Assembly: GCA_030619715.1 (NCBI GenBank)
Contig: JAUXAW010000001.1
Span: 3,195 to 67,194 of the forward strand
DNA: 64,000 bases
DNA from: a candidate division WWE3 bacterium
GTDB taxonomy: Bacteria; Patescibacteriota; WWE3; JAUXAW01
Direction of reading: 5' to 3'
Below are positions 1,027 through 53,030 of the stretch, one piece after another (position 1 is the first letter of the stretch; each line of letters begins with the position of its first letter). The translations under genes and the position numbers were made by a program. The notes beneath the pieces are model-generated. The model had not been told where the DNA came from. It saw nothing but the letters and a program-made list of their open reading frames with translations, and ran no database searches.

Positions 1027-1611
1027 CTATTCTTCCTCCTTCCGCCGGGGCACCTGGTGGCAGTGGCGGCAGCGGGCTTCGTAGGTCTCGTCGGCGCCGA
1101 CCATGATCACCGGATCGTCGTAGTTGGCTGGCTGACCGTTAATCAACCGCTGGCTACGGCTAGCCGGCGCACCACAGACGACGCAGATGGCCTGCAGCTT
1201 GTCCACCTTCTCCGCTATGGCCATCAGCAAGGGCATCGGACCGAAGGGCTCACCGCGAAAGTCCATATCCAGTCCAGCAACGACAACACGCACACCACCG
1301 TCTGCTAGCAGATTGCAAACATCGGCGAGAGTGTGCTCGAAGAAGTGCCCCTCGTCAATGAACACCACCTCGATGTCCGGCCCGACCAACGCTGTTATCT
1401 GCCAAACATCTCCCACTATAACAGCTTTGTGACGCTCTCCCCTATGAGAACCCACACTCTCTGCTGTATAGCGGGTGTCGCGGCTGTGATTGAATACCAT
1501 TACCTGCTGCCGGGCAATCTCGGCTCGCCTGATACGACGGAGTAGCTCCTCCGTCTTGCCGCTGAACATGCTGCCGCAGATGACCTCGATCCAACCTCTC
1601 TTTTGAGACAT
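1027..1611 (-). CDS. tdk: Thymidine kinase (TK1 family). The ATG at 1611 is preferred; the track start at 1632 is a TTG.
   Basis: [17 protein letters not shown]-loop. C-terminal Zn ribbon CVVCG...CRHCH. RBS GGAGG 7-9 nt upstream of the ATG at 1611. GC-rich. Confidence 0.85.
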
Positions 1612-1628
1612 ACTCTCCCTCCTCTCCT

Positions 1629-2051
1629 TCAACGATGGTAGCCAAGTCTTCGAACAGCATCAAGGAAAGCACTCTCCTCAGGTCCAATCGGCGACTCGCC
1701 TTCGAGAAGAGCTAGAATCCTTTCAGGAGAAGGGCCCCGCGCTTCAGTTAGGAGCAGTTCGTCTCCGAACTTCTGCCCAAGGGGTCCCTCCCTGAAAGCC
1801 CGCTCCAAAAGAACCAGAGCATCGCTCTCCTTGAGTCCGATCGGAGACCCTCTCGCCAGCAATTCCAGCAATTCTCCGAGGGTAAAACGGGTCGTCTCTC
1901 TCTGAAGCTTTCTGATATGACGCGCTGCCTGACCTGCTGAAGCAAACCCACCCTCAACAAGCTTCAGATTTTTTGTTTCCTCAAAAGTCTCCCTGAGCAT
2001 TACAAAACCATCCTCCGAACCCGTGGCTGACACCGCTATAACCCACTCCAT
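1629..2051 (-). CDS. Hypothetical protein, GC-rich. The likely start is the ATG at 2051, preceded by AGGAGG.
   Basis: [22 protein letters not shown]..., about 140 aa. It lies immediately upstream of tdk on the same strand, with a strong RBS. No recognisable domain. Confidence 0.5.
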
Positions 2052-2183
2052 CCTAACTCCCCTCCTTTCTTTCTTTGTTAAATTTTGATGGTGCTGCGAA
2101 TAAAACAAAAGCCCCTTGCGGGGCAGTTTGAGACAAACCTAGTCAACCATAATTTCTAAATTCTGTAAAGACCTAATTTTGAC

Positions 2184-2943: not shown

Positions 2944-3522
2944 CTACTGACCCCACTTTAACGATCGCCCTTCATCAAGAAGCATCAGAAGCATGATTCC
3001 GTAGTTGGCTAAATCCAGAGCCGTGTCCGGCAGTTTCTCGTCGGCAACTTTTCTTTTGTAACTTTTTTTGGAAAGCTGGGTGAGACGAAAGTATTTGTCC
3101 CCGATCCGGACTCCCAGTCCGGGAATCCCCCAAAAGCGAAAGGCATTCCCGTAATCGGCATTTTTACGCCGGAAAAGACTGGTCATTTCTCTGACCAGCT
3201 TCTTAAAAGCTTTTGGTTCGGAAAGACCCAGAAGACTGGGCCTAAAGAAGTTAAGATGAAAGTTGGTAGCATTGATAACTAAGGATTCTGTCGTGCTCTG
3301 AATCCGCTTGCGTAACTTCTGATCCTGTGGTCTCTTTTGCGCCTGGATAAGAAGTTCGACCAGCTCAAAATAGTCTTTCCTCAAATTAGCAGGAGGGTCG
3401 GTAGGATCGTAACTCAAAAGCTGATCCTGACTTAGTGACAAAATCCGTTTCGCCGCAACGGCAAAGTGAGCGGCATTCTCCTTATTGGAAGCCCTCATTA
3501 GTTTTTTTAAATCTTTCATCAT
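2944..3522 (-). CDS. DUF1599-like (nucleotide-modification-associated domain-like) protein, 192 aa.
   Basis: The motif KNADYGNAFRFWG...RIGDKYFRLTQL resembles the K-x-x-DYG-x-A-W/F-R ... D-K/Q-I/Y-F signature I associate with DUF1599. This recollection is unverified. Confidence 0.4.
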   Translation of the reverse strand: MMKDLKKLMRASNKENAAHFAVAAKRILSLSQDQLLSYDPTDPPANLRKDYFELVELLIQAQKRPQDQKLRKRIQSTTESLVINATNFHLNFFRPSLLGLSEPKAFKKLVREMTSLFRRKNADYGNAFRFWGIPGLGVRIGDKYFRLTQLSKKSYKRKVADEKLPDTALDLANYGIMLLMLLDEGRSLKWGQ

Positions 3523-3754
3523 TATGTTTATCTTAGTCTAACGGTAGCTACTGTAATTTTTTGGGGATCAAAGGGGACAACCCGACCGTCTCTTTTTCTA
3601 ATTTTTTCTGGGGTTTGGACAGGAGTTTTGGACACAGAAAACAACCCCGGGGGCAGCGAGGAGTGAGGAAATTCTTTCAACAATGTAAAGAGTATACTAT
3701 GTGTCTCCTCAATGTCAAGCTCCAAAGTAGAGAGGTGCAGAGAAAAATCTGTAA

Positions 3755-4810
3755 CTAAGCGGGAAGAAGGGTCTGACCAGTCCGGAGGGCTCGGGCAACC
3801 TTGTTGGGTATAGTTAGATCTAACTCCCAAAAATTTTGCTGGCGGGTGATCGGTTGGACCGGACCCGAACCACTCTGGCCACTCAGCCATGGCAAAAGAA
3901 TTTTTTCCGCGACCCATTTACTCGCCGCCGGGGCCACTGACTTTGAAATTAAGACCTGCGCCTCGAGAGGCCTTGGCCGAACCGACAAAATATTCAGAAT
4001 CTTGTCAAGCGGATAGGTCATTAGCGCGGCGTGTTCCAAAAGGTCAAACCAGCGATTCTCCTCCTGCCAAACCATCAGCCGTCGAGAAAGTACCGAACCG
4101 GTGTACCAATCTTTCTGGCTGATTATTTTTGGCACCACCGAACGAAACTTCATCTCCAAATCCCGTTTCTCCGCCCAGGCCACCGGATTAACCGCTTCTT
4201 TGGAAAAAACAGGATGCCCGAAGTCATAGCCTTCTGTTTCAGACTTCAACCAATCACCAACTTTATAATCGGAGGGCCAAACGGTCTCCGGGACAGAGGG
4301 GGGTTTCCTGGTCATACTGGTATGGATGATGTGAACACGTGGCCTTCTTTGAGGAATACCGATGTAACGTAAATCCAACCGTACAAGTAAGGTTGTCACG
4401 TTGTCCCAGACATCATAAAGTTGATTGTGAAAATTTGTCAAAAGCTTTCGTCCTAATGTCCAAGATAGAGGGCCTGTTTCCCACCAGATAACTTGGGCGC
4501 GAGAAGCTCCTGCTACTTTAACAAGATCAAGGATTTCCGGAAAAGTTTCTGGATCCTCGTGGGACTTCTTATCAAAGAAACTTAAACTTAAGTGGCTGAA
4601 CCTAGAACAAGGCGGGTTCCCTACAACAATATCTGCTTTAGGAAGACTGTCCGGCATCTGGGAAACTTCTTTGCTCGGCAAACCCAAGGACTGTGCCCCG
4701 CGCAATCCGGGTTTCCAAACTTCCTCACTTTCGAGAACCAGCAAACCCGCCTGTTGGAGACCTAGTAAAAATCCTCCTAAATAACAATGAGTTCCAATAA
4801 CTTTAAGCAT
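3755..4810 (-). CDS. Divergent DNA C5-cytosine methyltransferase-fold protein, 351 aa.
   Basis: Motif IV GNPPCSRFS (PC nucleophile). Motif VI-like WWETG (ENV equivalent). Motif VIII QRRPR. Motif I is degenerate (IGTHCYLGGFLLGLQQAG, no FxGxG). The start is 6 bp after the stop of the upstream kinase gene. Confidence 0.6.
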   Translation of the reverse strand: MLKVIGTHCYLGGFLLGLQQAGLLVLESEEVWKPGLRGAQSLGLPSKEVSQMPDSLPKADIVVGNPPCSRFSHLSLSFFDKKSHEDPETFPEILDLVKVAGASRAQVIWWETGPLSWTLGRKLLTNFHNQLYDVWDNVTTLLVRLDLRYIGIPQRRPRVHIIHTSMTRKPPSVPETVWPSDYKVGDWLKSETEGYDFGHPVFSKEAVNPVAWAEKRDLEMKFRSVVPKIISQKDWYTGSVLSRRLMVWQEENRWFDLLEHAALMTYPLDKILNILSVRPRPLEAQVLISKSVAPAASKWVAEKILLPWLSGQSGSGPVQPITRQQNFWELDLTIPNKVARALRTGQTLLPA

Positions 4811-4816
4811 AAGAGT

Positions 4817-5734
4817 TTAAAGAGCCGCATCAATCTTTTTGAGAATAAACTTGAAATCGGAAGGTTTGTGAACGAAGTCGAGCTCATCAACAGGGATAGT
4901 GACTGTAGAACAAAGGTCAAAACTCCCTACCCACTGATCATGTTTTTGGTTGAGGTGCTCCAAATATTCGGCGGTAATATTCTTTTCGTAAACTCTGCCT
5001 CGTTCTTTGATTCTCTTCAAAAGCTCGGGGACGGGCATCTTGAGATAAATAACAAGGTCAGGGACTTGAATGAGGTTTTTAACTGAGGAATAAAGACTTT
5101 GTAGGGTTCGATAATCTAACCCGTCTAGAATGCCTTGCTCGTATAAACTGGTGGCAAAGATAGAGAACTGCTCATGGACGCTGCGGTCCTGAAAAACGGG
5201 GATGATGCTTTTGTCAATTTCCGAATGGATTCTAAAACTTTCGGCGATGAAGTAAAGCTGGCTATGCAGCGCCCATCTCCCCATATCCTGGTAGTAACGC
5301 GGAAGGTAGGGGTTCCCAAGATCATCTATCAAGAAAAACTTACCGTTGTAATACTTAGCTAGCTTTTTAACCAAAACTGTTTTCCCCGCACCAATATTTC
5401 CCGTAACCACTACGTGGAAGAAGCCCTCCCGGGCCCGGACGGCTCCTTTGGTAATTGTCTTTTTAATCTCGGCCAGTTCCCTCTCAACCGCCGTCAGTTT
5501 TGAAGGCAGCGTATAATCTTTTTCCATGTTCTCGGGAAGGAAAAAGGAGAGAGGTTTATTTAGGACTTTGGCAATCTTCTCCAGCGATTCCAGCGAAAGG
5601 CGAAACTGGCCGCTTTCTAACTGGCTAATAGTTGGACCAGCGTAGTTTGTTTTTTCTCCCAAAATTTCCTGGGAAATTCCTAACTCTTCGCGAGCCTTTC
5701 TAACTTGTTTTCCGACGAATTTTTTAATATTCAT
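4817..5734 (-). CDS. XRE-family HTH domain fused to a deoxynucleoside kinase (dCK/dGK/dNK family).
   Basis: N-terminal QVRKAREELGISQEILGEK...TISQLESG (HTH_XRE). P-loop VVTGNIGAGKT. DRS/ERS-like motif QDRSVHEQFSIF. RBS AAGGAG. Confidence 0.7.
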   Translation of the reverse strand: MNIKKFVGKQVRKAREELGISQEILGEKTNYAGPTISQLESGQFRLSLESLEKIAKVLNKPLSFFLPENMEKDYTLPSKLTAVERELAEIKKTITKGAVRAREGFFHVVVTGNIGAGKTVLVKKLAKYYNGKFFLIDDLGNPYLPRYYQDMGRWALHSQLYFIAESFRIHSEIDKSIIPVFQDRSVHEQFSIFATSLYEQGILDGLDYRTLQSLYSSVKNLIQVPDLVIYLKMPVPELLKRIKERGRVYEKNITAEYLEHLNQKHDQWVGSFDLCSTVTIPVDELDFVHKPSDFKFILKKIDAAL

Positions 5735-6012
5735 AAAACAACTCCTTTGATAAGTCTTGATATTTGTAAGATCAGAGTTAGATTGCAGCTAAGTATAGCA
5801 ATCCTATCTGTGAAGGTCAAGGGTTAGACAAAATGGGGGGAGGTTAGAAGTTGATTATGTTAAATTTCACCCAAAGCTTTATGAATATATCTTCTGACTT
5901 GAGGTAATCTTGTTGTTTCAAGTCGTCTTTAGCAGAAGGTAGGTTTCGGTAGCGTGTTCGATCAAAACATGACTTTGGGCATAAAAAATCTTCCGGGGGC
6001 AGCGGAGAATAT

Positions 6013-6091
6013 CAGTAACTCAATAATTCAGTAACATCAGTAAAGACAAGAAGAACCTGCTATTGATTTACTGTCTTTACTGTCTTCACTG
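6013..6091. repeat. CAGTAA/TTACTG repeat element downstream of ftsZ. It includes an 11 bp inverted repeat CAGTAAAGACA/TGTCTTTACTG.
   Basis: CAGTAA at 6013, 6029 and 6038. TTACTG at 6068 and 6077. A related copy lies at 9672-9717. Confidence 0.6.
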
Positions 6092-7201: not shown

Positions 7202-7642
7202 CTAAATCCTCTTTGTATCCCTCTTAATTCTATTCCTGAAGGTAAACACTTGTAACGGTCTGCTCCCAAAATTTACCAGAAAACCTATACTTAATCCAGA
7301 CGCTCTTAGATAAGAAACCGTTTGTGATCTAAACTGTGAGTGCGAAGTTTCCACCGCCTTAACCTCAACAACAATCTTTCCATCAACTACCAAGTCAATT
7401 CGATGATCCCCAACCTTCCCTCCTTTAAAATGAACCGGCACATGTACTTCCTCTCGAAAGCGAATCCGATGTTCCTTGAGGCACTTTTTAATCGCTTCAA
7501 CATAAACCGACTCTTTAAAGCCGGGACCTAGCTCGTTATAAACCTCAAAGAAAATCCCCCTTAACTTATAGGTGAGCTCCGGATACAACAACTCCTTTTC
7601 ATTGCTGATCCCTCTTGATCCTTCGTCATCCTTCTTAATCAT
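7202..7642 (-). CDS. GxxExxY family protein (PD-(D/E)xK-like).
   Basis: LTYKLRGIFFEVYNELGPGFKESVYVEAI matches the GxxExxY signature. Confidence 0.7.
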   Translation of the reverse strand: MIKKDDEGSRGISNEKELLYPELTYKLRGIFFEVYNELGPGFKESVYVEAIKKCLKEHRIRFREEVHVPVHFKGGKVGDHRIDLVVDGKIVVEVKAVETSHSQFRSQTVSYLRASGLSIGFLVNFGSRPLQVFTFRNRIKRDTKRI

Positions 7643-52292: not shown

Positions 52293-53030
52293 ATGAAGTA
52301 TTCACTGTTTATCGGCCGGTGGCAACCTTTTCACAAGGGCCACAAAATGCTGATCAATGAAGTTCTCAAGGAGAAAAAGCCTGCTCTCATCGCTATCAGA
52401 GATACTGAAATATCGGAGGAAAATCCGTACACTATCGAGGAACGTAGGAAGATGATCAAAGAAGAGTACGGAGATAGCGTAAAGATAATCACCATCCCGG
52501 ATATAGGGGAGATCTGTTACGGTCGAAGGGTTGGATACAAGATAAGAAGAATTCGCTTGGATAACCAGACAGAGGAGATATCAGGAGCCAAGATAAGAGA
52601 TTCACAAAAAAGGGTTATTTGGCTTACAGGCAATATGGGTGCAGGGAAAACATCTCTTGCTTATCTTCTTAAAGACAGGTTGAATGCGGTTGTTTTGGAT
52701 GGCGATGAGATGCGAGCATCAATCTCGCTGGGAGCAGGTTTTAGCAAAAAGGACAGGAACGAACATAATTTAAGAGTAGCACGGCTGGCAAAAATTCTTC
52801 ACGCCCAGGGGCACAATGTTGTTGTGGCGGTCATCGCACCATTTAGGGAAACGAGAAAAAAGATTAATGATATCTGTGATCCCTATTGGATTTATGTGTG
52901 TGGCGGAGCAACGGGGAAAGATAAGCCCTACGAACCGCCGGAGAATCCCGATGTGGTTATTGATCCTTTGTCTGAAAGTTTAAGCGAAAGCCTGGAGAAA
53001 ATCATTGAGGAGGTGGGGAAAATTACATAG
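52293..53030 (+). CDS. Compact NMNAT/cytidylyltransferase-like nucleotidyltransferase domain fused to adenylylsulfate (APS) kinase. Candidate minimal PAPS synthase.
   Basis: N-domain has FIGRWQPFHKGH (H-x-G-H) and EISGAKIRDS (ISxTxIR-like). C-domain has VIWLTGNMGAGKTSLAYLL (P-loop), LDGDEMR, FSKKDRNEHNLRVARLAKIL and VVAVIAPFRETR, the APS kinase (CysC) motifs. Confidence 0.7.
   Translation: MKYSLFIGRWQPFHKGHKMLINEVLKEKKPALIAIRDTEISEENPYTIEERRKMIKEEYGDSVKIITIPDIGEICYGRRVGYKIRRIRLDNQTEEISGAKIRDSQKRVIWLTGNMGAGKTSLAYLLKDRLNAVVLDGDEMRASISLGAGFSKKDRNEHNLRVARLAKILHAQGHNVVVAVIAPFRETRKKINDICDPYWIYVCGGATGKDKPYEPPENPDVVIDPLSESLSESLEKIIEEVGKIT

What the first reader, a model, noticed from the sequence alone, without database searches (positions are those of the whole stretch)
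4817..5734. Fusion of an XRE-family HTH to a deoxynucleoside kinase
The N-terminal ~65 aa are a textbook XRE/Cro-type HTH (QVRKAREELGISQEILGEK...TISQLESG). The remainder is a dNK-family kinase with a P-loop and a DRS motif. A DNA-binding domain fused directly to a salvage kinase is unusual. It may autoregulate the operon in response to nucleoside availability, or it may tether the kinase to DNA.
Basis: seen in the sequence. Interest (0 to 1): 0.6.

Follow-up and report, generated by a model that had tools for sequence, protein, structure and literature searches.

The report
Repressor domain fused to nucleoside-kinase sensor
A candidate-phyla (Patescibacteria) bacterium encodes a very rare protein that joins a DNA-binding switch to a deoxynucleoside-kinase body lacking its catalytic base, so a salvage enzyme has most likely become a nucleotide sensor controlling its own small operon.

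Summary
ORF 4817-5734(-) encodes 305 aa: an XRE-type HTH (Pfam HTH_3, aa 11-65), a heptad-patterned linker helix (aa 78-103), and a full dNK-fold domain (Pfam dNK, aa 109-302).

The fusion is rare and undescribed. Only 7 clusters at 50% identity, among 1.84 billion representatives, match across both domains. None was found in GTDB species genomes, phage records or IMG/VR, and no paper mentions it.

The "kinase" label needs revising. All 9 unfused relatives keep every catalytic residue. Only 1-2 of 19 fused proteins do. The window protein keeps the P-loop, DRS and LID but has Ile where the general-base Glu should be. Relatives have lost far more. The base-specificity pair (dCK R104/D133 equivalents) is replaced in 19/19 fused proteins. 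All modules are under purifying selection (dN/dS 0.03-0.10).

Best reading: an enzyme-derived one-component regulator, analogous to BzdR and NadR, that senses a (deoxy)nucleoside or nucleotide. It probably autoregulates an operon with a translationally coupled divergent C5 DNA methyltransferase, inside a pyrimidine-deoxynucleotide hygiene neighbourhood. A sister subgroup has a perfect conserved palindromic operator. The window's own promoter shows footprints only.

The ligand, DNA binding and residual kinase activity are untested. This is a new variant of a known kind.

The parts
4817..5734 (-). Complete HTH-linker-dNK-like ORF (305 aa plus stop)
   Evidence: ORF list and sequence. Pfam HTH_3 and dNK are both above the gathering cutoff. 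An identical protein, P0001, is in the public collection.
5534..5734 (-). XRE/Cro-type HTH DNA-binding domain (aa 1-67). The recognition helix region TISQLESGQFR is nearly invariant in the family.
   Evidence: Pfam HTH_3 aa 11-65. AF2 places five short helices at aa 2-65. Invariant columns T35-E40, G42, F44 and R45.
5423..5533 (-). Linker: a disordered hinge (aa 69-76) and a long amphipathic helix (aa 78-103) with an a/d heptad pattern (L76, L80, V83, L87, I90, I94, A98, A101)
   Evidence: AF2 secondary structure and pLDDT. The heptad is read directly from the sequence. The segment is conserved in 305-aa-type members and deleted in 272-aa members. dN/dS is 0.03-0.08.
4820..5422 (-). dNK-fold domain (aa 105-305), proposed to be an effector-sensing module
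   Evidence: Pfam dNK at 152 bits. Foldseek top hits are Giardia dAK 8puu and M. mycoides dAK 2jat. dN/dS is 0.03-0.09.
5378..5401 (-). Walker A / P-loop GNIGAGKT (aa 112-119), intact
   Evidence: Alignment table.
5327..5329 (-). Codon ATA = Ile136, at the position of the dNK general-base Glu (the E of the 'YEPV' motif; dCK Glu53 / Dm-dNK Glu52)
   Evidence: An ungapped HMMER alignment to Giardia dAK 8puu pairs I136 with the E of YYEPV. 9/9 unfused relatives have E here, while the window, P0002 and P0003 have I or V. The role of Glu53 is stated in PMC1802566.
5180..5188 (-). DRS motif (aa 183-185), intact. It is followed by Q189 in place of the specificity Asp (dCK D133 equivalent).
4985..5014 (-). 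LID segment RIKERGRVYE (aa 241-250), with its arginines intact
5792..5820 (-). Sigma-70-type promoter TTGACC-17 nt-TATACT with an extended-10 TG
   Evidence: Consensus scan, 10/12 matches. The -35 is 8/9 invariant and the spacer only 3/16 invariant across the window, L022 and L023, even though synonymous sites are near saturation.
5778..5793 (-). Footprint block 1, CTTAGCTGCAATCTAA: an imperfect palindrome (TTAGnT-N3-AnCTAA) overlapping the end of the -10 and the predicted start site. It contains the ATCTAA half-site shared with the sister-group operator. Candidate operator.
   Evidence: 11/17 invariant in three loci. TCTA is invariant in a 7-locus alignment. The sequence is unique in the 64-kb window.
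5756..5770 (-). Footprint block 2, CTTACAAATATCAAG, separated from block 1 by 7 non-conserved nt. Possible second half-site or operator.
   Evidence: 11/15 invariant, against 2/7 in the intervening 7 nt.
3755..4810 (-). Translationally coupled downstream gene (6-nt gap): a divergent C5 cytosine DNA methyltransferase-like protein, 351 aa. Probable co-regulated target.
   Evidence: Pfam DNA_methylase at 31 bits. Motifs NPPCSR, WWE and RxR are invariant. AF2 pLDDT is 93, and Foldseek matches M.HhaI/M.HaeIII at TM about 0.65 over about 340 columns. It lies adjacent to HTH-dNK in 5 independent loci.
2944..3522 (-). DUF1599 ('nucleotide modification associated domain 1') gene. It may be the last gene of the unit, but it has its own promoter-like site at 3718..3691.
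   Evidence: Pfam DUF1599. Promoter scan. The genes beyond 2944 are convergent on the + strand.

Best explanation
The gene encodes an enzyme-derived one-component transcription factor. A dNK-fold domain serves as a small-molecule sensor for a (deoxy)nucleoside or its phosphates. The base pocket has been remodelled away from the Arg/Asp type of its nearest enzyme relatives. A likely dimeric assembly, through the canonical dNK dimer and perhaps the heptad linker helix, positions two XRE HTH domains on an operator. That operator overlaps the transcription start of the gene's own promoter (5778-5793, perhaps also 5756-5770). Ligand occupancy of the kinase-like pocket changes DNA affinity. This would tune expression of the operon (regulator, then the translationally coupled divergent C5 DNA methyltransferase, then possibly DUF1599) to the state of the deoxynucleotide pool in an organism that probably lives on salvage.

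What is shown: the domain architecture, its rarity, the loss of the catalytic Glu, the family-wide decay of catalytic motifs, the pocket remodelling, purifying selection, the conserved gene pairing, the promoter footprints, and the perfect palindromic operator in the sister subgroup.

What is inferred: DNA binding at these sites, repression as opposed to activation, dimerisation, the identity of the ligand, and the loss or reduction of kinase activity in this particular protein.
For: (1) Both domains are real and collinear in at least 19 proteins.
(2) Catalytic residues: 9/9 unfused relatives keep K-[ST], the general-base Glu, D-R-[ST], both LID Arg residues and E250. Among 19 fused proteins only P0121 keeps them all, and P0004 nearly so. 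The window protein and its two closest relatives have I or V at the Glu position. The 272-aa group has GKR, DES and no LID Arg. P0135 lacks the Walker Lys. The Glu is the general base (PMC1802566).
(3) Ligand-contact positions persist: N141 and Y148 are invariant, and E188 is near-invariant.
(4) The specificity pair (dCK R104/D133 equivalents) is R/D in the unfused proteins (9/9 and 8/9). It is E-[S/N] and Q/N in 19/19 fused proteins, including the catalytically intact ones.
(5) dN/dS is 0.03-0.10 for the HTH, linker and dNK parts alike, so the altered domain is maintained by selection.
(6) A kinase-domain-only tree separates fused from unfused proteins (79/100 bootstraps), with the intact members basal. 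That fits one fusion followed by decay.
(7) Sister subgroup: exactly one TATCTAA-N7-TTAGATA palindrome per locus in 8/8 loci (7 perfect). It always lies between the divergent promoters just upstream of the gene, and there are none in 417 kb of unrelated loci.
(8) Window subgroup: conserved -35 and -10 boxes, plus two conserved blocks just downstream, embedded in otherwise scrambled DNA.
(9) Precedent: BzdR has the same layout (XRE HTH, linker, P-loop kinase-like effector domain), and loss of catalysis improved its regulation (PMC3602430). NadR combines an HTH with a nucleoside kinase.
(10) Flanking genes in five loci all concern pyrimidine dNTP supply or hygiene: UDG, dUTPase_2, NUDIX, dCTP-deaminase-like, DUF1599 and TK.
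Against: The window protein itself keeps an intact P-loop, DRS and LID, and it has Asp137/Asp138 right after Ile136, so residual or alternative-base catalysis cannot be excluded. The strong palindrome of the sister group is absent from the window's promoter. The window-type footprints rest on three close relatives (87% protein identity) and are not recognisable in the more distant 305-aa-type loci L024 and L033. No further copy of the candidate operator occurs in the 64-kb window, so no regulon can be defined. Dimerisation and allostery are inferred from homologues; only a monomer model was made, and pTM 0.69 leaves the domain orientation open. The ligand is unknown. Sensitivity limit: independent HTH-dNK fusions built on more distant dNKs could lie below the 150 listed hits.
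Confidence: 0.55

Rival explanations
1. It is a bifunctional 'trigger enzyme': a still-active deoxynucleoside kinase that also represses its own operon, like NadR or BirA. Catalysis and regulation share one active site.
For: The window protein keeps Walker A GKT, DRS, both LID arginines and E250. Asp137/138 flank the lost Glu position. Basal members P0121 and P0004 keep the full catalytic set, so the ancestral fusion was probably bifunctional. No other dNK gene lies in the 64-kb window. CPR organisms are expected to need salvage kinases (taxon; the dependence on salvage is established knowledge, not tested here).
Against: The general base is a conserved hydrophobic residue (I/V) in all three close relatives and is under purifying selection. 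17 of 19 family members have lost at least one catalytic residue, so the family's conserved function cannot be catalysis. In the BzdR reconstruction an active enzyme domain impaired in vivo regulation. The rest of the genome was not available, so another dNK may exist.
Confidence: 0.25
2. It is a controller (C-protein-like) regulator of the downstream orphan C5 DNA methyltransferase. The dNK-like part is only a dimerisation scaffold with no ligand sensing.
For: The HTH has weak similarity to R-M control proteins and to C.BclI (PADLOC Control_protein E 1.4e-6; PDB 2b5a E 9e-5). It pairs invariantly, 4-7 nt upstream, with the methyltransferase-like gene in five 305-aa-type loci. dNKs are obligate dimers.
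Against: Ligand-contacting residues (N141, Y148, E188, mostly E250 and Q159) remain conserved, and the specificity pocket was specifically remodelled instead of drifting. The 272-aa/P0006 subgroup has no methyltransferase neighbour yet keeps the domain. No restriction endonuclease is adjacent in any locus. The methyltransferase-like family also occurs without the regulator.
Confidence: 0.12
3. The HTH tethers an active kinase to DNA to channel dNMP/dNTP production locally.
For: Only the architecture itself.
Against: The catalytic base is lost here, and catalysis has clearly been abandoned in most relatives. The sister group has a single sequence-specific palindrome at its own promoter, which indicates a gene-specific regulator and not general DNA tethering.
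Confidence: 0.03
4. It is an artefact: two adjacent genes fused by a frameshift, a mis-assembly or a gene-calling error.
For: None found.
Against: It is one uninterrupted ORF. The same fusion, with a conserved linker, occurs in at least 19 distinct sequences from many independent samples and assemblers. dN/dS across the linker is 0.03-0.08.
Confidence: 0.01

Closest known systems
BzdR (Azoarcus sp. CIB) and the BzdR/BoxR subfamily (NCBIfam PRK08154)
   Same: The layout and size are the same: an N-terminal XRE-type HTH, a linker needed for signal transfer, and a C-terminal P-loop NMP-kinase-fold domain derived from an enzyme and used as the effector-binding module (298 aa against 305 aa here). 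Loss of catalysis is a step in becoming a regulator (PMC3602430). PRK08154 is the best NCBIfam hit.
   Different: The effector domain here is a deoxynucleoside kinase (Pfam dNK 152 bits), not a shikimate kinase (SKI 18 bits, below cutoff). The PRK08154 score is 40.8 against a cutoff of 204, and it covers only the HTH through the P-loop. This is an independent, convergent fusion. Ligand and regulon differ: benzoyl-CoA and benzoate catabolism there, presumably deoxynucleotide metabolism here.
NadR (Enterobacterales)
   Same: An HTH fused to nucleotide-metabolism enzyme domains that include a P-loop nucleoside (ribosylnicotinamide) kinase. It represses salvage and biosynthesis genes in response to the product pool. 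The HTH-bearing form is taxonomically restricted, while HTH-less enzyme orthologues are widespread (PMC12421817).
   Different: NadR is trifunctional, with an NMN adenylyltransferase domain and active enzymes. No such domain or family match was found here. The kinase family differs.
Unfused bacterial, eukaryotic and viral deoxynucleoside kinases (e.g. Chloroflexota dNKs, M. mycoides dAK 2jaq/2jas, Giardia dAK 8puu, Dm-dNK, human dCK)
   Same: Same fold (TM 0.85-0.90 to the target), with the P-loop, DRS, LID, 3'-OH Tyr/Glu and base-contacting Gln. They are 37-42% identical to the nearest unfused proteins. dNKs bind dNTPs as feedback inhibitors across both sites (structure titles 2jas, 1zm7 and 2vp5).
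   Different: There is an N-terminal HTH and linker. The general-base Glu is replaced by Ile. The R/D specificity pair is replaced by S and Q.
Restriction-modification controller (C) proteins, e.g. C.BclI, and self-repressing C5 methyltransferases
   Same: An XRE-type HTH is encoded immediately upstream of, and co-transcribed with, a C5 DNA methyltransferase-like gene. There is weak profile similarity.
   Different: C proteins are stand-alone proteins of about 80 aa that control a restriction gene. Here there is no endonuclease, there is a 200-aa sensor domain, and half of the family has no methyltransferase neighbour.
NrdR (zinc ribbon plus ATP-cone repressor of ribonucleotide reductase genes)
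   Same: The analogy is functional only: a repressor whose DNA binding is set by (d)NTP occupancy of a nucleotide-binding domain, controlling dNTP supply genes. This rests on established knowledge and was not tested here.
   Different: The DNA-binding and sensor domains are unrelated, and no homology was detected.

Membership tests
XRE / Cro-C1 HTH (Pfam HTH_3, PF01381) | Profile match above the gathering score | tested here: met
   47.1 bits against a cutoff of 23, aa 11-65, full model 1-55.
XRE / Cro-C1 HTH (Pfam HTH_3, PF01381) | Five-helix bundle fold | tested here: met
   AF2 helices at 2-18, 22-29, 33-40, 48-58 and 62-65, with pLDDT 79-93.
XRE / Cro-C1 HTH (Pfam HTH_3, PF01381) | Sequence-specific binding to a (pseudo)palindromic operator | tested here: inconclusive
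   The sister subgroup has a perfect conserved palindrome. The window promoter has only conserved footprint blocks and an imperfect palindrome. No binding assay is possible with these tools.
Deoxynucleoside kinase family (Pfam dNK, PF01712) | Profile match above the gathering score, and the dNK fold | tested here: met
   151.6 bits against a cutoff of 27. Foldseek TM to target is 0.85-0.90 against 8puu and 2jat.
Deoxynucleoside kinase family (Pfam dNK, PF01712) | Walker A GxxxxGK[ST] | tested here: met
   GNIGAGKT, aa 112-119.
Deoxynucleoside kinase family (Pfam dNK, PF01712) | General-base Glu (dCK Glu53 / Dm-dNK Glu52, the 'EPV' motif) | tested here: not met
   Ile136 aligns without gaps to the E of YYEPV in 8puu and to the E in 9/9 unfused relatives. 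The role of the Glu is stated in PMC1802566. The protein is a homologue, but it cannot be filed as a functional kinase on sequence grounds.
Deoxynucleoside kinase family (Pfam dNK, PF01712) | (D/E)RS arginine and LID arginines | tested here: met
   D183-R184-S185, R241, R245 and R247 are present.
Deoxynucleoside kinase family (Pfam dNK, PF01712) | Phosphotransfer to a deoxynucleoside | not testable with these tools
   This needs an enzyme assay.
BzdR/BoxR subfamily (NCBIfam NF006015 / PRK08154) | Whole-protein score above the curated cutoff | tested here: not met
   40.8 bits against a cutoff of 204. Only model positions 31-165 of 314 are matched.
BzdR/BoxR subfamily (NCBIfam NF006015 / PRK08154) | C-terminal shikimate-kinase-like effector domain | tested here: not met
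   Pfam SKI scores 18.3 bits, below its 22.1 cutoff, while dNK scores 151.6 bits.
BzdR/BoxR subfamily (NCBIfam NF006015 / PRK08154) | XRE HTH, linker, P-loop kinase-fold effector domain architecture | tested here: met
   compared with PMC3602430. The layout works like BzdR, but the protein is not a member.
NadR | NMN adenylyltransferase domain plus ribosylnicotinamide kinase domain | tested here: not met
   No such Pfam or NCBIfam match at E <= 0.01.
R-M controller (C) protein | Small stand-alone HTH protein adjacent to a restriction endonuclease gene | tested here: not met
   It is a 305-aa two-domain protein. No endonuclease is adjacent in the window or in five related loci. There are only weak PADLOC Control_protein hits.

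The most novel reading that the evidence does not exclude
HTH-dNK proteins are a previously unrecognised class of deoxynucleotide-pool sensors in Patescibacteria. A salvage kinase captured an XRE HTH once. Its base pocket was then re-tuned, plausibly toward a thymine/uracil-type or modified pyrimidine ligand, given S166/Q189 and neighbours such as dUTPase, dCTP deaminase, UDG and TK. It then lost catalysis stepwise. This leaves a living series: an intact, probably bifunctional form (P0121), a form missing only the general base (this window), and fully dead sensors (the 272-aa group). In the window's lineage the sensor would couple expression of a divergent C5 DNA methyltransferase to the dNTP pool.
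Probability: 0.35. Interest if true: 0.7.

Novelty: new variant of a known kind. Interest (0 to 1): 0.55.

Why it matters
Three reasons.

1. Regulators of dNTP supply are few: NrdR, and CytR/DeoR-type regulators for nucleoside catabolism. A dNK-derived sensor would add a new effector-domain class for one-component regulators. It would come from CPR/Patescibacteria, whose regulation is almost unexplored and which are thought to depend on nucleotide salvage.

2. The family offers a natural counterpart to the laboratory reconstruction of BzdR evolution (enzyme, then bifunctional chimera, then catalytically dead regulator). Extant members appear to sit at each stage, which makes the enzyme-to-regulator transition directly testable with a handful of proteins.

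3. Practical use: a compact repressor of about 300 aa that responds to a deoxynucleoside or dNTP, together with its defined 21-bp palindromic operator from the sister group, would be a ready-made biosensor part.

Tried and rejected
1. Looked for the fusion in GTDB species-representative genomes using HTH-specific peptide patterns. The 18 loci found are all unrelated XRE proteins at <=48% identity with no dNK domain.

2. Same scan of JGI metagenome contigs. It yielded only three more members of the 272-aa subgroup (L035-L037); the rest were unrelated XRE proteins.

3. Phage records by tblastn, IMG/VR contigs and BFVD structures. Only unfused dNKs were found.

4. dNK hits with N-terminal extensions (P0148, P0151, P0160, P0184, P0185, P0191, P0203, P0213, P0247). 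These are low-complexity tails and not HTH domains. P0140 and P0254 are tandem dNKs, and P0260 carries an unrelated N-terminal region of about 190 aa that I recognised from memory as HPPK-like and did not test.

5. Searched the window for the sister-group palindrome and for the window-type motif, to define a regulon. No enrichment over shuffles was seen, and the only site is the gene's own promoter.

6. The inverted repeat GATTGC-N11-GCAATC around the -10 box is not conserved in L022 or L023, so it was dropped.

8. Divergent small genes of the sister group have no Pfam match, so they give no clue to the regulon.

9. Rfam found no RNA family in the window.

10. PADLOC gave only weak, partial hits and no known defence system.

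11. The afdb50 fold library was unavailable, so UniProt-wide structural architecture could not be checked.

12. The literature search for 'Glu52/Arg105' of Dm-dNK found nothing relevant. The dCK paper was used instead.
Full report
WHAT IS THERE

The minus-strand ORF 4817-5734 is intact. It has an ATG start, a TAA stop and 305 aa, and is preceded by AAAGGAG.

Pfam places HTH_3 at aa 11-65 (47 bits, cutoff 23). It places dNK at aa 109-302 (152 bits, cutoff 27).

An AlphaFold2 model built on 19 homologues (pLDDT 89) shows four parts:
- a five-helix HTH bundle (aa 2-65);
- a disordered hinge (aa 69-76);
- one long helix (aa 78-103), whose hydrophobic residues follow an a/d heptad (L76, L80, V83, L87, I90, I94, A98, A101);
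- a dNK fold (aa 107-304).

The dNK fold superposes on Giardia dAK, M. mycoides dAK, Dm-dNK and human dCK with TM 0.74-0.90 normalised to the target. No solved or viral structure covers both domains: TM normalised to the query is at most 0.66.

HOW RARE IS IT

A word-indexed search of 5.8 billion protein clusters found 14 clusters with HTH plus dNK. Everything else was unfused dNKs of about 213 aa, mostly from Chloroflexota, at 37-42% identity.

An exhaustive HMMER profile search of 1.84 billion representatives (50% identity) found only 7 representatives matched end to end. All of them carry HTH_3 and dNK above the Pfam cutoffs.

Other N-terminally extended dNKs are low-complexity tails, tandem dNKs, or in one case carry an unrelated N-terminal region.

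The fusion was not found elsewhere:
- Pattern scans of 185,579 GTDB species genomes found no family member.
- 50,697 phage records have none.
- IMG/VR has none.
- JGI metagenomes added three members.

No curated NCBIfam model describes it, and no paper in the library mentions such a fusion. One source auto-annotates a member simply as 'deoxyadenosine/deoxycytidine kinase/DNA-binding XRE family transcriptional regulator'.

One caveat applies. Independent fusions built on much more distant dNKs could score below the 150 hits listed.

HOST

The window is an ordinary chromosome segment with a long minus-strand dcw/cell-wall cluster ending in ftsA and ftsZ. All named FtsZ relatives at 67-72% identity are Patescibacteria/CPR: Microgenomates, WWE3 and Saccharimonadales.

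THE 'KINASE' IS PROBABLY NOT A KINASE ANY MORE

I aligned 19 fused proteins with 9 unfused relatives and tabulated the functional residues.

Every unfused protein keeps Walker A K-[ST], the general-base Glu (the E of 'YEPV', five residues before the N of NPYL), D-R-[ST], both LID arginines and the 3'-OH Glu.

Among the fused proteins:
- Only P0121 keeps them all, and P0004 nearly so.
- The window protein and its two 87%-identical relatives keep everything except the Glu, which is Ile or Val (Ile136, codon 5327-5329).
- P0005 has GKA and has lost the LID arginines.
- P0006 and the 272-aa group have GKR, DQS or DES, and no LID arginines.
- P0135 lacks even the Walker lysine.

HMMER's ungapped alignment to Giardia dAK pairs Ile136 with the Glu of YYEPV. 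[quoted passage not shown]

Ligand-contact positions tell a different story. N141 and Y148 are invariant, E188 is near-invariant, and E250 is mostly kept.

The base-specificity pair is also changed. In dCK this pair is Arg104/Asp133. Asp133 hydrogen-bonds the cytosine amino group, and the R104M/D133A variant binds thymidine (PDB 3qeo, listed). The unfused relatives have Arg in 9/9 and Asp in 8/9. All 19 fused proteins have E-[S/N] and Q/N instead, including the catalytically intact ones.

So the pocket was re-tuned at or soon after the fusion, and catalysis decayed afterwards.

This is not pseudogenisation. Between the window, P0002 and P0003, dN/dS is 0.05-0.10 for the HTH, 0.03-0.08 for the linker and 0.03-0.09 for the dNK part.

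A neighbour-joining tree of the kinase domain alone separates fused from unfused proteins (79/100 bootstraps). The intact P0121 and P0004 sit on short basal branches. That fits a single fusion followed by repeated loss of catalytic residues.

WHAT IT IS LIKELY TO CONTROL

Two context types exist.

Type A comprises the 305-aa forms: the window, P0002, P0003, P0005 and P0121. In these the gene is always followed 4-7 nt later by a 351-359-aa C5-methyltransferase-like gene, while the upstream neighbours differ (ftsZ; UDG; a divergent AAA_17 kinase; a divergent dUTPase_2).

That partner belongs to a small family of 32 clusters. Its features are:
- invariant NPPCSR (motif IV Cys), WWE (motif VI Glu) and RxR (motif VIII);
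- only remote sequence similarity to M.HhaI;
- a confident full two-domain M.HhaI/M.HaeIII-like fold (pLDDT 93, TM about 0.65 over about 340 columns).

No restriction endonuclease is adjacent anywhere.

Genes around type-A loci and around stand-alone copies of the methyltransferase-like gene are consistently about pyrimidine deoxynucleotide supply or DNA hygiene. They include UDG, dUTPase_2, NUDIX, dCTP-deaminase-like, PRA-PH/MazG-like, DUF1599 and TK, plus a thymidylate-synthase-like gene in a phage module.

Type B comprises P0006 and the 272-aa forms that lack the linker. Here the gene is followed by the CCA-adding enzyme gene, and a conserved acidic ORF of 76-78 aa with unknown function is transcribed divergently.

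OPERATORS

All eight type-B loci carry exactly one TATCTAA-N7-TTAGATA palindrome (seven perfect, one with a single mismatch; arms extendable to 15-19 nt). It lies directly after the forward -10 box and overlaps the -10 of a reverse-strand TTGACA promoter. There are none in 417 kb of unrelated loci. This is the classic geometry of an autoregulated divergent repressor site.

The recognition-helix region (TISQLE-G-FR) is almost invariant across the family, so related half-sites are expected in type A.

The window's promoter is TTGACC-17-TATACT with an extended TG (5820..5792). Synonymous sites between the three close type-A genes are near saturation (pS up to 0.72), so conserved non-coding blocks are meaningful:

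| Segment | Invariant positions |
|---|---|
| -35 box | 8/9 |
| promoter spacer | 3/16 |
| CTTAGyTGyrrTCTAr (5778-5793) | 11/17 |
| next 7 nt | 2/7 |
| yTTryAAwTATCAAr (5756-5770) | 11/15 |

The first block is an imperfect palindrome over the predicted start site and contains the ATCTAA half-site. TCTA is the only tetranucleotide invariant in a 7-locus alignment spanning both types.

The evidence here is weaker than for type B. The type-B palindrome itself is absent. The more distant type-A loci L024 and L033 do not show the same blocks. No second site exists in the window.

MECHANISM PROPOSED

Shown:
- the architecture, its rarity and a probable single origin;
- loss of the general base here and broad catalytic decay in relatives;
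- family-wide pocket remodelling;
- purifying selection;
- tight coupling to the methyltransferase-like gene;
- promoter-proximal footprints and a bona fide palindrome in the sister group.

Inferred:
- The dNK-like domain dimerises. dNKs use a canonical dimer interface, and the heptad linker may add a coiled coil.
- The dimer presents two HTHs to an operator over the start site.
- Occupancy of the nucleoside or phosphate sites by a (deoxy)nucleoside or dNTP changes DNA affinity. dNKs bind dNTP feedback inhibitors across both sites, as the structure titles indicate.
- Expression of the regulator, the methyltransferase and perhaps DUF1599 is thereby tied to the deoxynucleotide pool.

The S166/Q189 pocket and the dU/dT-centred neighbourhood hint at a thymine/uracil-type or modified pyrimidine ligand. 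This is speculation.

COMPARISON WITH KNOWN SYSTEMS

BzdR is the closest in layout. It has an XRE HTH (aa 1-90), a linker and a P-loop shikimate-kinase-like effector domain (aa 131-298). A catalytically dead chimera regulated better in vivo than an active one (PMC3602430). The window protein is not a BzdR family member: PRK08154 scores 40.8 against a cutoff of 204, and the effector domain is dNK and not SK. The resemblance is convergent.

NadR is the closest in logic, being an HTH joined to an active nucleoside kinase that represses salvage genes. The window protein lacks NadR's defining domains.

It also differs from R-M controller proteins, with which the HTH shares weak similarity. It has a sensor domain, there is no endonuclease, and half of the family has no methyltransferase partner.

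VERDICT

This is a real, very rare and undescribed fusion.

It is a new variant of a known kind, namely enzyme-derived one-component regulators. Its most interesting feature is that extant relatives seem to span the whole enzyme-to-regulator transition.

The main uncertainties are residual activity of this particular protein, its exact operator, and its ligand. All three are experimentally tractable.

Noticed in passing
window 3531-3620 (-), in the 232-nt gap between the methyltransferase-like gene and DUF1599: The peptide ...PEKIRKRDGRVVPFDPQKITVATVRLR* matches the first 20 positions of the ATP-cone domain (E 1.5e-4, below the Pfam cutoff) and is then cut by a stop. It looks like a relic of the 5' end of a ribonucleotide reductase or NrdR gene. 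A strong promoter-like site (TTGACA-16-TATACT, 3718..3691) lies just upstream. In the related locus L022 the gene after the methyltransferase begins with a radical-SAM/4Fe-4S motif.
   Followed up: partly
window 3755-4810 (-); related loci L022, L024, L028-L034: The methyltransferase-like partner belongs to a small family (32 clusters) with a full M.HhaI-like fold but very divergent sequence. It has no endonuclease neighbour. It is repeatedly adjacent to UDG, dUTPase_2, NUDIX, dCTP-deaminase-like, MazG/PRA-PH-like or DUF1599 genes. It is inserted between secY and adk in one genome and sits in a phage replication module in another. It could be an orphan DNA C5-methyltransferase with uracil-repair partners (a Dcm/Vsr-like logic). 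More speculatively, it could be a pyrimidine C5-methyltransferase acting on nucleotides. Untested.
   Followed up: partly
L025 2468-2704 (-), L027 1524-1760 (-), L035 4634-4870 (-), L003 3222-3452 (-): A conserved acidic ORF of 76-78 aa (C-terminus KIFWMMKLIPAEPNPN) with no Pfam match is transcribed divergently from every 272-aa/P0006-type HTH-dNK gene. It shares the palindromic operator region, so it is probably co-regulated.
   Followed up: partly
window 7202-7642 (-): A PD-(D/E)XK nuclease superfamily gene (PDDEXK_3, 113 bits) is inserted between ftsA and ftsZ within the dcw cluster.
   Followed up: no
window 6029-6091: Inverted repeat with 20-nt arms (80% complementary, 23-nt loop) built from CAGTAA/TTTACTG-like repeats, immediately downstream of the ftsZ stop. 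It may be a terminator or insulator between ftsZ and the HTH-dNK promoter, but it has no T-tract.
   Followed up: no
window 52293-53030 (+): A 245-aa protein combines a cytidylyltransferase-like N-terminus with an APS-kinase-like P-loop domain. It was the only other P-loop hit when the window was searched with dNK queries.
   Followed up: no
window 1027-2108 (-): A thymidine kinase gene (NCBIfam equivalog, 285 bits) overlaps by 4 nt an upstream 159-aa ORF with no family match. This pair has noticeably higher G+C (0.55-0.58) than its surroundings (0.40-0.48). Two convergent + strand ORFs separate it from the HTH-dNK operon, so it is a separate transcription unit.
   Followed up: partly
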